Of a DNA stretch of 4,476 nt, positions 1 through 4,476 are shown piece by piece (the first letter of the stretch is position 1; every line of letters begins with the position of its first letter). The translations under genes were made by a program, and so were the position numbers. The DNA comes from a virus. Taxonomy: Duplodnaviria; Heunggongvirae; Uroviricota; Caudoviricetes. Location of the stretch: IMG/VR virus record IMGVR_UViG_2627853967_000001, one strand, 5' to 3'. The notes beneath the pieces were generated by a model. It made no database searches. It was not told the DNA's origin and saw only the letters and a program-made list of their open reading frames with translations.

Positions 1-471
1 GCTGACGTATGTTGCCACACAGGAGGGATGGTTGTACCTCGCTGGCATCAAGATGTTTATACGTGTGAAATTGTCGGCTACGCCATGGGAGAGCGCATGA
101 CAAAAGAGCTGACAGGTAAAGCCCTGTTTATGGCGCTCAGGAGCCAGCGCCCACCTGCCGGGCTAATCCACCACTCTGATCGAGGTTCACAGTACTGCGC
201 ATACGATTACCGGGTCATACAGGAGCAGTCTGGTCTGAAAACATCAATGTCGCGTAAAGGTAACTGTTACGACAACGCTCCGATGGAAAGCTTCTGGGGA
301 ACGCTGAAAAATGAGAGCCTGAGCCACTATCGTTTTAATAACCGGGATGAAGCCATCTCAGTAATACGGGAATACATTGAGATTTTCTACAATCGTCAGC
401 GTCGTCACTCTCGTCTGGGGAATATCTCCCCGGCAGCCTTCAGGGAAAAATATCATCAGATGGCTGCTTAA
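1..471 (+). pseudogene. IS3-family transposase OrfB (DDE/rve integrase core), C-terminal part; 5' end outside window; frame break near nt 50-55
   Basis: Frame 1 (28..471) encodes HHSDRGSQY...SMSRKGNCYDNAPMESFWGTLKNE...YNRQRRHSRLGNISPAAF, the second Asp and Glu regions of an IS3-family DDE core. Frame 2 (nt 2..52) encodes LTYVATQEGWLYLAGIK, the conserved first-Asp region (IS3 itself has [23 protein letters not shown]). The two halves of one catalytic core therefore sit in different frames, consistent with a 1-nt loss around nt 52 (aag|atg where aag gat is expected). Stop TAA at 469..471. Confidence 0.7.
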
Positions 472-509
472 AAAAAGAACAAATGGTAGTGTCCGCTATT
501 GCCAGTACA
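1..509 (+). mobile_element. IS3-family insertion sequence, right-hand portion (left end outside window)
   Basis: Transposase fragment followed by about 38 bp ending ...GCCAGTACA at 501..509, resembling the TGTACTG-type terminal inverted repeat of IS150-group elements. The exact right boundary (509 to about 516) is uncertain. Confidence 0.55.
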
Positions 510-518
510 CCTCACAGG

Positions 519-2392: not shown

Positions 2393-2563
2393 TTAAAGTT
2401 CGTGTGCCATCTGGTCTTTTTCGGCACAGATTTCACTACAATATTTTTTCATTTCCGTCGTTGGTATAACTCCACGCATGAAATGAAGTGGTCTTGTAAT
2501 GATTTTGCTTTCTTCAATTTCTTTATTGCAAAGGTGATAAGCACATTTTATTTTCTTAGTCAT
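2393..2563 (-). CDS. ydaE: YdaE-like small zinc-ribbon protein (56 aa)
   Basis: Hand translation of the minus strand gives [56 protein letters not shown], with stop TAA at 2393..2395. It has two Cys pairs (C-x4-C and C-x3-C). Its ATG at 2563..2561 overlaps the kilR stop (TAATG) and is preceded by AAGGCGGAG. It is too short to appear in the ORF track. Confidence 0.6.
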   Translation of the reverse strand: MTKKIKCAYHLCNKEIEESKIITRPLHFMRGVIPTTEMKKYCSEICAEKDQMAHEL

Positions 2564-2784
2564 TACCATGACTCCGCCTTTACAGGTAAACCATCACGAC
2601 CGAGGAAGACTTTAATCATGCAGTCAGAAATGCATGTTTTTGTAGTCAGGCTACGAATATAAAGTTTTCGCTTTTTAATATTGTTTGCCGAGGCGATATA
2701 TGTCCGACCTTCATGAAGAATATAATCGCCAGGAGTCACACACTGACGTGGTATTTCATCAGTTCCGAAGTGATGAGCAATCAT
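2563..2784 (-). CDS. kilR: KilR-like Rac prophage cell-division inhibitor (73 aa)
   Basis: The 73-aa [76 protein letters not shown] matches the length and sequence I recall for K-12 KilR. A strong Shine-Dalgarno (AAGGAGG) lies 5 nt upstream of the ATG at 2784. Gene order kilR, ydaE, racC, recE matches Rac. Confidence 0.8.
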
Positions 2785-2844
2785 GGAAGCCTCCTTAATA
2801 AACAGTCTTACAAAGGAAATCTCAGGAAAGTTATTTAATACTTA

Positions 2845-2849
2845 GCAGC
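2845..2849. repeat. IS2 target-site duplication, GCAGC (copy at IRR side)
   Basis: The 5 bp immediately outside the IS2 terminus at 2850 are gcagc, identical to the 5 bp at 4181..4185 outside the other terminus. IS2 makes 5-bp duplications. Confidence 0.8.
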
Positions 2850-2890
2850 TGGATTTGCCCCTATATTTCCAGACATCTGTTATCACTTAA
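2850..2890 (-). repeat. IS2 right inverted repeat (IRR), terminus ...CA
   Basis: The 41 bp at the element end share GCCCC, TCCAGACA and TATCACTTA blocks with the left repeat. Confidence 0.7.
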
Positions 2891-3766
2891 CCCATTACAA
2901 GCCCGCTGCCGCAGATATTCCCGTGGCGAGCGATAACCCAGCGCACTATGCGGATGCCATTCGTTATAATGCTCGAACGCCTCTGCAAGGTTCTTTGCTG
3001 CCGTTAACCCGTCTGGTTTGGGCATGATACTGATGTAGTCACGCTTTATCGTTTTCACGAAGCTCTCTGCTATTCCGTTACTCTCCGGACTCCGCACCGC
3101 CGTGTTCTTCGGTTCAAGTCCCAACATCCGGGCGAACTGGCGTGTTTCATTAGCCCGGTAGCATGAACCATTATCCGTCAGCCACTCCACTGGAGACGAC
3201 GGAAGATCGTTGCCGAAGCGGCGTTCCACCGCTCCCAGCATGACGTCCTGTACTGTTTCACTGTTGAAGCCGCCGGTAGTCACCGCCCAGTGCAGTGCCT
3301 CACGATCACAGCAGTCCAGCGCGAACGTGACACGCAGTCTCTCTCCGTTATCACAGCAGAACTCGAACCCGTCAGAGCACCATCGCTGATTGCTTTCTTT
3401 CACGGCCACTCTGCCTGTATGTGCCCGTTTCGATGGCGGTACAGCAGGTTTTCGCTCAAGCAACAGCGCATTCTGGCGCATGAGCCGGTAAACACGTTTG
3501 GCATTGATCGCAGGCATACCATCAAGTTCTGCCTGTCTGCGAAGCAGCGCCCATACCCGACGATAACCATACGTGGGCAGCTCTCCGATAACATGGTGTA
3601 TACGGAGAAGCACATCCGTATCATCAGTGTGACGACTGCGGCGGCCATCCATCCAGTCATCGGTTCGTCTGAGAATGACGTGCAACTGCGCACGCGACAC
3701 CCGGAGACAACGGCTGACTAAGCTTACTCCCCATCCCCGGGCAATAAGGGCGCGTGCGCTATCCAC
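2861..3766 (-). CDS. insD: IS2 transposase OrfB (InsD), 301-aa frame; normally expressed as an InsCD fusion by -1 frameshifting
   Basis: The translation [23 protein letters not shown]...[29 protein letters not shown] matches IS2 InsD along its full length. It overlaps the insC 3' end in the -1 frame. Confidence 0.9.
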
Positions 3767-4134
3767 TTTTTTGCCCGTCCATATTCAACGGCTTCTTTGA
3801 GGAGTTCATTTTCCATCGTTTTCTTGCCGAGCAGGCGCTGGAGTTCTTTAATCTGCTTCATGGCGGCAGCAAGTTCAGAGGCAGGAACAACCTGTTCTCC
3901 GGCGGCCACAGCAGTAAGACTTCCTTCCTGGTATTGCTTACGCCAGAGAAATAACTGGCTGGCTGCTACACCATGTTGCCGGGCAACGAGGGAGACCGTC
4001 ATCCCCGGTTCAAAGCTCTGCTGAACAATTGCGATCTTTTCCTGTGTGGTACGCCGTCTGCGTTTCTCCGGCCCTAAGACATCAATAATCTGTTCTCCAA
4101 TGACAAGTCTAAAAACTGGTATTAAGACTATCAC
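3724..4134 (-). CDS. insC: IS2 OrfA (InsC) regulatory/DNA-binding protein; conserved 121-aa region is 3724..4089; the canonical start codon position reads ATT
   Basis: The translation ...[53 protein letters not shown]...LLPGDGE matches IS2 InsC. The codon where InsC normally begins (4089..4087) is ATT, not ATG, though it is still preceded by GGAGAACAG. The only in-frame NTG upstream is GTG at 4134, inside the left inverted repeat and with no Shine-Dalgarno. Confidence 0.8.
3766..3772 (-). other. Programmed -1 ribosomal frameshift heptamer A-AAA-AAG (insC to insD)
   Basis: Minus-strand sequence GCA AAA AAG TGG in the insC frame; a shift to -1 reads AAA AAA GTG GAT AGC, the start of the InsD frame. 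It sits exactly at the insC/insD overlap. Confidence 0.6.
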
Positions 4135-4138
4135 TTAA

Positions 4139-4180
4139 ATAAGTGATACTGGTTGTCTGGAGATTCAGGGGGCCAGTCTA
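4139..4180 (-). repeat. IS2 left inverted repeat (IRL), terminus TA; contains the palindrome TATCACTTA-TT-TAAGTGATA
   Basis: Revcomp of 4139..4180 is TAGACTGGCCCCCTGAATCTCCAGACAACCAGTATCACTTAT. Confidence 0.7.
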
Positions 4181-4185
4181 GCAGC
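4181..4185. repeat. IS2 target-site duplication, GCAGC (copy at IRL side)
   Basis: Identical to 2845..2849. Confidence 0.8.
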
Positions 4186-4364
4186 TGCTCTACGGTCATA
4201 TTTTTAATTGCGCTCCGGTTTACAAGAGCCCACCCCTGTTTTTCCAGATAAAACTGGAAAGTATCCAGGGTACAGACCAGTGCACCGTCAGGAACAGTTT
4301 CGGTGAATCTGATATTGCCGTGTTCGTCGAAGTGCACAACCAGAGTGCGACCGTTACCCGGAAT
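4181..4364 (-). pseudogene. Internal fragment (61 codons) of an unidentified prophage gene, cut by IS2 on both sides; its last 4 codons and stop lie at 2831..2849
   Basis: Open minus-strand frame across the whole 184-bp segment: IPGNGRTLVVHFDEHGNIRFTETVPDGALVCTLDTFQFYLEKQGWALVNRSAIKNMTVEQL. Removing IS2 and one copy of the duplication joins it in frame to ...LSIK-TAA (stop at 2831..2833), 47 bp upstream of kilR. The ORF-track entry 4131..4337 is this fragment read through into the IS2 left repeat. Confidence 0.45.
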
Positions 4365-4476
4365 TAGACTGGCCCCCTGAATCTCCAGACAACCAGTATC
4401 ACTTATTTAAGTGATAGTCTTAATACCAGTTTTTAGACTTGTCATTGGAGAACAGATTATTGATGTCTTAGGGCCG
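4365..4476 (+). mobile_element. IS2, second copy, left end only (continues beyond window), + orientation
   Basis: 4365..4476 is identical to the reverse complement of 4069..4180 (IS2 left repeat and insC leader), starting TAGACTGGCCCCC. Confidence 0.9.
4411..4476 (+). CDS. insC: IS2 OrfA (InsC) of the second copy, 5' part only; canonical start position 4456..4458 reads ATT
   Basis: GGAGAACAG ATT ATT GAT GTC TTA GGG CCG encodes (I)IDVLGP. The in-frame GTG at 4411 is the only upstream NTG. Confidence 0.45.
   Translation, partial: MIVLIPVFRLVIGEQIIDVLGP

What the first reader, a model, noticed from the sequence alone, without database searches (positions are those of the whole stretch)
4181..4364. 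Orphaned gene fragment between the IS2 copies; its identity is unknown
The 184-bp segment is one open frame that, once IS2 is removed, ends ...NMTVEQLLSIK-stop, 47 bp upstream of kilR. I do not recognise the protein; it is not obviously SieB-like or membrane-like. It would be the gene immediately upstream of kilR in the ancestral operon and its N-terminal part lies beyond the second IS2.
Basis: seen in the sequence. Interest (0 to 1): 0.45.

Follow-up and report, generated by a model that had tools for sequence, protein, structure and literature searches.

The report
Dead tail of a prophage regulator gene
The 184-bp segment is the leftover C-terminal end of a known prophage regulator gene (a Rha-family, anti-repressor-like gene that normally sits just upstream of the cell-division inhibitor kilR), cut off on both sides by IS2 insertions in a Shigella-type genome; it is an ordinary pseudogene remnant.

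Summary
IS2 #1 is exactly 1331 bp (2850-4180) with a 5-bp target duplication, GCAGC. Removing it rejoins an open minus-strand frame that ends ...NMTVEQLLSIK-stop, 46 nt upstream of kilR.

The identity is now resolved. The 65 rejoined residues match residues 218-282 of a 282-aa "Rha family phage regulatory protein" (86% identity to WP_000887681.1). That gene lies immediately upstream of kilR-ydaE-recE in Rac-like prophages of 63 complete E. coli genomes, including O157:H7. Close relatives lie upstream of dicB, and head-sharing relatives in functional phages lie upstream of kil.

The fragment is the tail that follows the Rha domain. This tail is a small enterobacterial module of about 60 aa with no Pfam model and no structural neighbour. 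It is also found fused to AntA and ORF6N heads.

In 18 sibling Shigella-type genomes the gene has the same IS2 #1 and a +1 frameshift, but no IS2 #2. The window's strain therefore carries one extra, strain-specific lesion. What lies beyond IS2 #2 could not be read.

In intact copies the annotated "Ash" N-terminus overlaps the isrK and C4 RNA genes. This matches the isrK-orf45-anrP module of Gifsy-1.

Verdict: a non-functional remnant of a known gene, of low interest.

The parts
4181..4364 (-). Retained piece of the regulator gene: codons for IPGNG...VEQLL, equivalent to residues 218-279 of the 282-aa O157 protein. This is essentially the whole C-terminal tail module. Bases 4181-4185 (GCAGC) are one copy of the IS2 #1 target duplication.
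   Evidence: It is 86% identical at protein level to WP_000887681.1, matches phrog_25059 at 9e-33, and shows coding-type divergence.
2831..2849 (-). Displaced 3' end of the same gene. 2845-2849 is the second GCAGC copy; 2831-2844 completes the Leu codon begun at 4181 (C + TA) and encodes S-I-K plus the TAA stop (2831-2833).
   Evidence: reconstruction. The ending ...LLSIK* is the same as in L003.
2850..4180 (-). IS2 copy #1, 1331 bp, with transposase ORFs on the minus strand (co-directional with kilR). It is inserted 4 codons before the stop of the regulator gene.
   Evidence: The same insertion site occurs in all 18 sibling genomes.
4365..4476 (+). IRL end of IS2 copy #2 (first 112 nt; the rest is outside the window), inverted relative to copy #1. 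It is inserted in front of ATTCC at the start of the tail module and is strain-specific.
   Evidence: identical to the reverse complement of copy #1. It is absent from 18 sibling genomes, all of which have the uninterrupted site GCTGACAAGATGATTCCGGGTAACGG.
2563..2784 (-). kilR (73 aa, intact ORF), the gene that followed the regulator gene in the ancestral operon. IS2 #1 now separates it from everything upstream.
   Evidence: annotation of homologous loci; Pfam KilR assignment.

Best explanation
The segment is a non-functional remnant of a Rac-like prophage early-left-operon gene. It encodes the C-terminal tail of a Rha-family, anti-repressor-like regulator.

In intact prophages the order is: repressor gene - DUF1391 gene - DicF - isrK - C4 RNA - Rha-type regulator - 46 nt - kilR - ydaE - (racC) - recE - recT. 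The protein has a conserved Rha head and a separate tail of about 60 aa.

In the Shigella-type lineage the gene suffered two lesions, in unknown order: a +1 frameshift near the head/tail boundary, and an IS2 insertion 4 codons before the stop (target duplication GCAGC). In the window's strain a second, inverted IS2 then landed at the first residue of the tail module. That leaves 184 bp with no promoter, no start codon and no head domain.

- Shown here: identity, position, the three lesions, and the modular nature of the tail.
- Inferred: the piece is not expressed and has no function today; IS2 #2 is a simple insertion, so the 5' part of the gene lies on its far side; the ancestral protein acted as an anti-repressor-type regulator gated by the isrK/C4 leader, as described for Gifsy-1 AnrP.
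For: - **Identity and position.** Megablast of the fragment hits 269 E. coli genomes, always under a gene annotated as Rha family. The rejoined sequence with kilR-ydaE is collinear over 100% of its length in 63 genomes. The annotated loci L003 and L004 show Rha family (282 aa) - kilR - ydaE - recE - recT - ralR - xisR - intR next to ttcA.
- **Domains of the parent protein.** Pfam gives Phage_pRha at residues 119-203 (5e-31) and Phage_ASH at 14-108. NCBIfam gives TIGR02681 (6e-33). The fragment equals residues 218-282 and matches phrog_25059 (9e-33) and the C-terminus of phrog_995.
- **Coding signature.** 18 synonymous against 9 non-synonymous codon changes.
- **Lesions.** IS2 boundaries and target duplication. 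The frameshift is GCTGA[T]GTTCGACC and occurs in all 18 siblings, which also share IS2 #1 and lack IS2 #2.
- **Modularity.** tblastn of the 184-aa form hits 655 phage records, but in the listed matches only residues 1-108 align, and just 5 records cover 80% or more of the query. The tail alone hits no phage record. An exhaustive phmmer search finds only 22 representatives, about 10 of them credible, with pRha, AntA or ORF6N heads.
- **Leader and analogy.** Rfam places isrK and C4 inside the annotated 5' part of the ORF in L001, L003 and L006, with DicF just upstream in L001 and L003, and in front of the CDS in functional phages. The Gifsy-1 isrK-orf45-anrP work is in PMC4825925.
- **No promoter.** No sigma-70-like promoter match anywhere in 2500-4476.
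Against: - Non-expression is inferred, not measured. A 68-aa GTG-initiated ORF (4134-4337, minus strand) runs from the fragment into the end of IS2 #1, and read-through from IS2 #2 cannot be excluded.
- The source strain was not found, so the far side of IS2 #2 is unknown.
- Orthology to Gifsy-1 AnrP was not tested directly, because no AnrP sequence was at hand.
- The anti-repressor role is an annotation and an analogy, not a tested function for this protein.
- Identical Rha proteins sit next to repressors that are only 26% identical. This does not fit a simple model in which the tail recognises the prophage's own repressor.
Confidence: 0.9

Rival explanations
1. IS2 #2 marks a rearrangement (an IS2-mediated inversion or deletion, or recombination with a distant IS2) rather than a simple insertion. 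In that case the 5' part of the gene is not adjacent to the far end of IS2 #2, or has been lost.
For: The two IS2 copies are inverted and only 184 bp apart, in an IS-rich genome. Sibling loci differ from one another in IS content. The junction was found in no other genome, so the far side is unseen.
Against: The fragment keeps its ancestral orientation and the intact GCAGC duplication around IS2 #1. All 18 siblings have the gene contiguous at this site. A single paste-in event is the most economical explanation.
Confidence: 0.15
2. The fragment is still expressed as a small protein: the 68-aa ORF 4134-4337, made of the tail module plus 9 residues encoded by the IS2 end. It could act, for example, as a free tail module that interferes with full-length regulators of other prophages.
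For: The ORF exists. Tail-only or tail-first proteins occur elsewhere, for example P0022, which has the module at its N-terminus, and short P0013/P0015-type products.
Against: There is no promoter-like site in 2500-4476. The start is GTG, and reading the sequence I saw no obvious Shine-Dalgarno motif upstream of it. No gene with this product is on record in the assembly collection. Most short database hits are labelled 'partial', meaning contig-end truncations.
Confidence: 0.04
3. The open frame is open by chance, or belongs to some other gene such as sieB or a membrane protein.
For: A 61-codon open frame has roughly a 5% chance per frame. The fragment has no Pfam hit.
Against: End-to-end homology with the same stop codon and the same spacer to kilR in 63 genomes. 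A third-position substitution bias. A PHROG match at 9e-33.
Confidence: 0.01

Closest known systems
Rha family phage regulatory protein WP_000887681.1 of the Rac-like prophage at ttcA in E. coli O157:H7 and other strains (L003, L004)
   Same: Residues 218-282 align with the rejoined fragment without gaps at 86% identity. The ending ...LLSIK-stop is the same, the 46-nt spacer is the same, and the downstream genes kilR-ydaE-recE are the same.
   Different: The O157 gene is intact. The window keeps only the tail, and the Shigella-type copy also has a +1 frameshift and one or two IS2 insertions.
isrK-orf45-anrP module of Salmonella prophage Gifsy-1 (PMC4825925)
   Same: Intact relatives carry an isrK match directly followed by a C4-type RNA match and then an anti-repressor-like gene. 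The paper notes an orf45-anrP fusion of 287 aa in S. dysenteriae, which resembles the 282-aa 'Ash+Rha' annotation here.
   Different: None of the leader lies in the window. Similarity of AnrP's sequence, and of its tail in particular, to this protein was not tested. The neighbouring genes described in that paper (antQ upstream, isrJ downstream) are not those found here, where kilR follows the regulator gene.
Phage P1/P7 immI operon c4-icd-ant (own knowledge: Citron & Schuster 1990; Riedel et al. 1993)
   Same: A C4-family antisense RNA sits in the leader of an operon that couples an anti-repressor-type gene with a cell-division inhibitor. Rfam C4 is matched at 71-79 bits against a gathering score of 45.
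   Different: The gene order differs: the division inhibitor (kilR, dicB or kil) is downstream here, not upstream. The head is Rha rather than P1 Ant, and the element is lambdoid rather than P1-like.
Domain-shuffled phage regulators of the Bro-N / KilA-N / ORF6N / AntA / Rha type (own knowledge: Iyer, Koonin & Aravind 2002)
   Same: The same tail of about 60 aa is fused to pRha, AntA or ORF6N heads. The same Rha head carries an unrelated tail in Stx-type and other phages.
   Different: This particular tail has no Pfam model, no relative among solved structures by sequence, and no structural neighbour.

Membership tests
Rha family phage regulatory protein (Pfam PF09669 Phage_pRha; NCBIfam TIGR02681) | The parent gene contains the Phage_pRha domain above the curated cut-off | tested here: met
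   L003 protein: PF09669 at 107.5 bits (cut-off 29.9), residues 119-203; TIGR02681 at 113.2 bits (cut-off 45.95). The Shigella sibling products of 210 aa carry PF10554 and PF09669.
Rha family phage regulatory protein (Pfam PF09669 Phage_pRha; NCBIfam TIGR02681) | The fragment in the window itself retains the Phage_pRha domain | tested here: not met
   No Pfam family matches the 65-aa product at E <= 10. The fragment starts 14 residues after the end of the domain. It is a piece of a family member, not a functional member.
Rha family phage regulatory protein (Pfam PF09669 Phage_pRha; NCBIfam TIGR02681) | The fragment is collinear with the C-terminus of full-length members, with the same stop and downstream gene | tested here: met
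   100% query coverage in 63 genomes, with ...LLSIK* and 46 nt to kilR.
isrK-orf45-anrP type module (Gifsy-1) | isrK RNA immediately upstream of the regulator coding sequence | tested here: met
   Rfam isrK scores 59.6-68.6 bits (gathering score 50) in L001, L003 and L006 and L023 and L024. This holds for relatives only; that part of the gene is not in the window.
isrK-orf45-anrP type module (Gifsy-1) | Protein orthologous to AnrP, and IsrK-dependent translational activation | not tested
   No AnrP sequence was at hand, and the regulation needs an experiment. The paper's note on the S. dysenteriae 287-aa fusion is suggestive only.
IS2 (IS3 family) | A 1331-bp element with the IS2 sequence and a 5-bp target duplication | tested here: met
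   Copy #1: 1331 bp, 99.5% identical to an annotated 'IS3-like element IS2 family transposase' locus, with a GCAGC duplication. Copy #2: only 112 nt are visible, identical to copy #1. Its duplication cannot be tested.
   No Pfam hit of any kind for the fragment. The parent protein hits only Ash and pRha above cut-off.
LytTR-type DNA-binding domain (my own recollection, prompted by the '...LVNRSAIKNM' motif) | A match to the LytTR profile or fold | tested here: not met

The most novel reading that the evidence does not exclude
The retained 184 bp encodes essentially a complete copy of an undescribed tail domain of about 60 aa that shuffles independently. It is confined to enterobacterial prophage regulators and is attached to Rha, AntA or ORF6N heads. 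It has no Pfam model and no detectable structural relative, and it does not co-vary with the neighbouring immunity repressor. It could be an oligomerisation or partner-binding module that sets the target of a class of isrK/C4-gated anti-repressor-type proteins. These proteins are always encoded directly upstream of a cell-division inhibitor (kilR, dicB or kil), which would be a lambdoid counterpart of the P1 c4-icd-ant circuit.
Probability: 0.4. Interest if true: 0.35.

Novelty: already known. Interest (0 to 1): 0.1.

Why it matters
For the window itself it matters little. The result closes an "unknown identity" note by showing an IS-shredded pseudogene of an annotated prophage gene, typical of genome decay in Shigella-type genomes.

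Three side results may help annotation:
- The tail is a distinct, unmodelled domain.
- The "Ash" N-terminus annotated on these genes coincides with the isrK and C4 RNA genes, so the annotated start codon is doubtful.
- An isrK/C4-gated Rha-type regulator is syntenic with three different cell-division inhibitor genes across lambdoid prophages.

Tried and rejected
- **Source strain.** I looked for it four ways. The 474-aa truncated RecE look-up gave 8 genomes and the window's KilR allele gave 10 more; none has IS2 #2. The exact look-up of the 68-aa junction ORF found nothing on record. The exact 33-mer across the fragment/IS2 #2 junction gave zero matches in genome contigs, viral contigs and metagenome contigs.
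- **LytTR-like idea.** Rejected.
- **Tail as determinant for the cis-encoded repressor.** Disfavoured. L003 and L004 have identical Rha proteins, but their neighbouring repressors are 26% identical. L001 and L002 share the tail, with different repressors again.
- **Promoter and terminator scan of 2500-4476.** No promoter-like site. The two terminator-like hairpins are at chance level.
- **Literature search on Rha, kilR and antirepressor.** Nothing specific to this gene.

Full report
**Anatomy of the window**

On the minus strand the window carries part of the early-left operon of a Rac-like prophage.
- recE is truncated to its first 474 codons (519-1943) by an IS600 copy at 1-518. That stretch is 99.4% identical to annotated IS600.
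- racC (2043-2366), ydaE (2393-2569) and kilR (2563-2784) follow.
- A complete IS2 lies at 2850-4180. It is 1331 bp, 99.5% identical to annotated IS2, and flanked by the direct repeat GCAGC at 2845-2849 and 4181-4185.
- The 184-bp segment of the finding (4181-4364) comes next.
- A second IS2 starts at 4365 in the opposite orientation. Only 112 nt are visible, and they are identical to the reverse complement of the IRL end of the first copy.

**The observation**

The segment is open in one minus-strand frame. Removing IS2 #1 and one GCAGC copy gives IPGNGRTLVVHFDEHGNIRFTETVPDGALVCTLDTFQFYLEKQGWALVNRSAIKNMTVEQLLSIK-stop. Openness of 61 codons is not significant on its own, at roughly 0.05 per frame. 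The evidence below shows that this is real coding sequence.

**Identity**

- The fragment matches 269 of 5426 complete E. coli genomes at 80-99% DNA identity, always under a gene annotated as Rha family (phage regulatory protein or transcriptional regulator).
- The rejoined fragment with kilR and ydaE is collinear over its full length in 63 genomes.
- In the O157:H7-type Rac-like prophage next to ttcA the order is: HTH repressor, DUF1391 gene, Rha family gene (282 aa, WP_000887681.1), 46 nt, kilR, ydaE, recE, recT, ralR, xisR, intR.
- That protein ends ...NMTVEQLLSIK-stop. Over the 65 rejoined residues it is 86% identical.
- The 27 differing codons split into 18 synonymous and 9 non-synonymous. 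Nucleotide differences number 8, 4 and 19 at codon positions 1, 2 and 3. This is the signature of a sequence that evolved as a coding region.
- Close relatives with the same tail lie upstream of dicB instead of kilR.

**Domain structure of the parent protein**

Pfam finds Phage_ASH at residues 14-108 and Phage_pRha at 119-203. NCBIfam finds TIGR02681. The fragment corresponds to residues 218-282, beyond both domains, and has no Pfam match at all. It does match phrog_25059 (9e-33), the C-terminus of phrog_995 ("transcriptional regulator"), and more weakly the C-termini of phrog_2379 ("anti-repressor") and phrog_340.

**The tail is a separate, shuffled module**

- tblastn of the 184-aa form of the protein hits 655 phage records. 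In the listed matches only residues 1-108, the Rha head, align; just 5 records cover 80% or more of the query.
- The tail alone hits no phage record.
- In phages PhiR12_3 and Lys12581Vzw the head is shared up to "...AYIAEFDRME" and an unrelated tail follows.
- An exhaustive phmmer search of 1.84 billion representatives finds only 22 hits. About ten are credible; the rest are very long proteins with multiple matched stretches.
- Among the credible hits the tail is fused to a pRha head (P0018, 193 aa), an AntA head (P0009) or an ORF6N head (P0014). In P0022 it sits at the N-terminus.
- A profile search recovers only E. coli, Shigella and Salmonella proteins.
- With the 14-sequence alignment AlphaFold gives a locally confident model: pLDDT 83.9, pTM 0.47, a beta-hairpin followed by helices.
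- The tail does not track the neighbouring immunity repressor. L003 and L004 encode identical Rha proteins next to repressors that are only 26% identical. L001 and L002 share the tail with different repressors again.

The role of the tail therefore remains inferred. Oligomerisation or binding of a conserved partner fits better than recognition of the prophage's own repressor.

**The lineage of the window**

Exact look-ups of the truncated RecE and of the window's KilR allele return 18 complete NCBI genomes. They carry ipaH-type (LRR_TTSS/NEL) and sit-type (ZnuA/ABC-3) genes and many IS elements. One of them also contains the Shigella sRNA CssrB. From my own knowledge, CP001383.1 is Shigella flexneri 2002017.

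All 18 share four features:
- IS2 #1 at the same site. The IRR-side junction is exact in all 18 and the IRL-side junction in 17; L005 differs near the IRL end.
- The uninterrupted sequence GCTGACAAGATG|ATTCCGGGTAACGG at the place where the window has IS2 #2. Seventeen of them also carry the identical 184 bp; L020 has no exact copy.
- No IS2 #2.
- A +1 frameshift, GCTGA[T]GTTCGACC, about 20 codons upstream of the fragment.

The gene was therefore already dead in this lineage, and the window's strain adds a third lesion. The window differs from its closest sibling, L006, at only two substitutions and a 1-nt deletion inside IS600.

The strain itself could not be found. The claim that the 5' part lies just beyond IS2 #2 is the most economical reading but was not verified.

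**How the ancestral gene probably worked**

Rfam places isrK (59.6-68.6 bits; gathering score 50) and C4 antisense RNA (71-79 bits; gathering score 45) inside the annotated 5' part of the ORF in L001, L003 and L006. DicF lies just upstream in L001 and L003. This is exactly the stretch Pfam calls "Ash".

In the functional phages PhiR12_3 and Lys12581Vzw the same two RNAs precede a CDS annotated from the methionine equivalent to M99 (MATIP...). P0018 also starts at the Rha domain. The leader is present in 211 phage records, where the gene is variously called Rha protein, antirepressor or transcriptional regulator.

This matches the Gifsy-1 isrK-orf45-anrP module. There the IsrK sRNA acts in trans to unlock translation of orf45 and, by coupling, of the anti-repressor-like AnrP. 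The paper also notes an orf45-anrP fusion of 287 aa in S. dysenteriae (PMC4825925). The arrangement also parallels the P1 c4-icd-ant operon (own knowledge).

The conserved position is directly upstream of a cell-division inhibitor: kilR, dicB or kil. The regulatory function of this particular protein is inferred from annotation and analogy, not tested.

**Present state**

The 184 bp has no promoter-like site nearby, no native start codon and no head domain. Its last four codons and stop are displaced by IS2 #1. A 68-aa GTG ORF (4134-4337) that runs into the IS2 end exists, but no gene with that product is on record in the assembly collection. I conclude that the segment is a non-functional remnant (confidence about 0.9).

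**Novelty and score**

The gene family, its position and its RNA leader are all annotated or published, and the fragment is a pseudogene piece. It is already known, with interest about 0.1. The one mildly new point is that the tail is a small, unmodelled, shuffled domain with no structural neighbour.

Noticed in passing
L003 5401-5477 and 5502-5589; L006 6976-7052 and 7077-7164; L001 4404-4483 and 4502-4589; L023 2259-2334 and 2359-2446; L024 2500-2575 and 2600-2687: The 'Phage_ASH' N-terminal third of the annotated 282-aa Rha family ORFs coincides with Rfam isrK and C4 antisense RNA matches above gathering score. In functional phages the CDS is annotated only from the MATIP... methionine. The Ash portion, and perhaps part of Pfam PF10554, may be translated RNA genes or an orf45-like leader, and the annotated start is doubtful.
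   Followed up: partly
L003 5124-5174; L001 4092-4143: A DicF sRNA match lies just upstream of isrK, C4 and the Rha gene. The early-left operon therefore carries three consecutive small-RNA genes ahead of the regulator and the division inhibitor.
   Followed up: no
L001 5212-5400, L002 5212-5400, L003 6245-6466, L023 3219-3431, L024 3460-3672: The Rha-type regulator is always followed directly by a cell-division inhibitor gene, but of three differently named kinds (dicB, kilR, kil) in different lambdoid prophages and phages. This recalls icd-ant in the P1 immI operon.
   Followed up: partly
window 1-518 and 519-1943: recE is truncated to its N-terminal 474 codons by an IS600 copy, so the C-terminal part of the protein is missing. 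The same truncated product is indexed in 865 blocks of the assembly collection.
   Followed up: partly
window about 45-52: The IS600 copy has CATCAAGATG where the sibling genome L006 has CATCAAAGATG. The other six siblings compared show the same downstream mismatch pattern (40 mismatches at window positions 49 and below), consistent with the same indel. This 1-nt deletion would shift the transposase frame; it could be a real mutation or a homopolymer sequencing error.
   Followed up: no
window 2721 (kilR codon 22): At this position the window matches L006, while L007-L012 differ. The window's exact 73-aa KilR, which has Ile at residue 22, is also encoded by L013-L022. kilR, ydaE and racC remain intact ORFs although IS2 #1 cuts them off from the operon's promoter. 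IS2 #1 is oriented so that its transposase genes read toward kilR.
   Followed up: no
L006 7520-7813 and equivalent positions in the siblings: Gene callers split the frameshifted Shigella-type gene into a 210-aa Ash+pRha product and a 97-aa product that reads from the tail into the IS2 end. Such artefactual 'proteins' populate the databases as 'partial' or 'hypothetical' entries.
   Followed up: partly
P0051 (105 aa): A database protein with a DicB Pfam domain (PF05358) matches 40% of the tail at 88% identity. It may be a fused or mis-called ORF spanning the end of a Rha tail and dicB.
   Followed up: no
window 4254-4268 (minus strand): A terminator-like hairpin, CTGGATACTTTCCAG followed by TTTTAT, lies inside the fragment. 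The count of such sites in the region is at chance level (2 found, 1.8 expected).
   Followed up: yes
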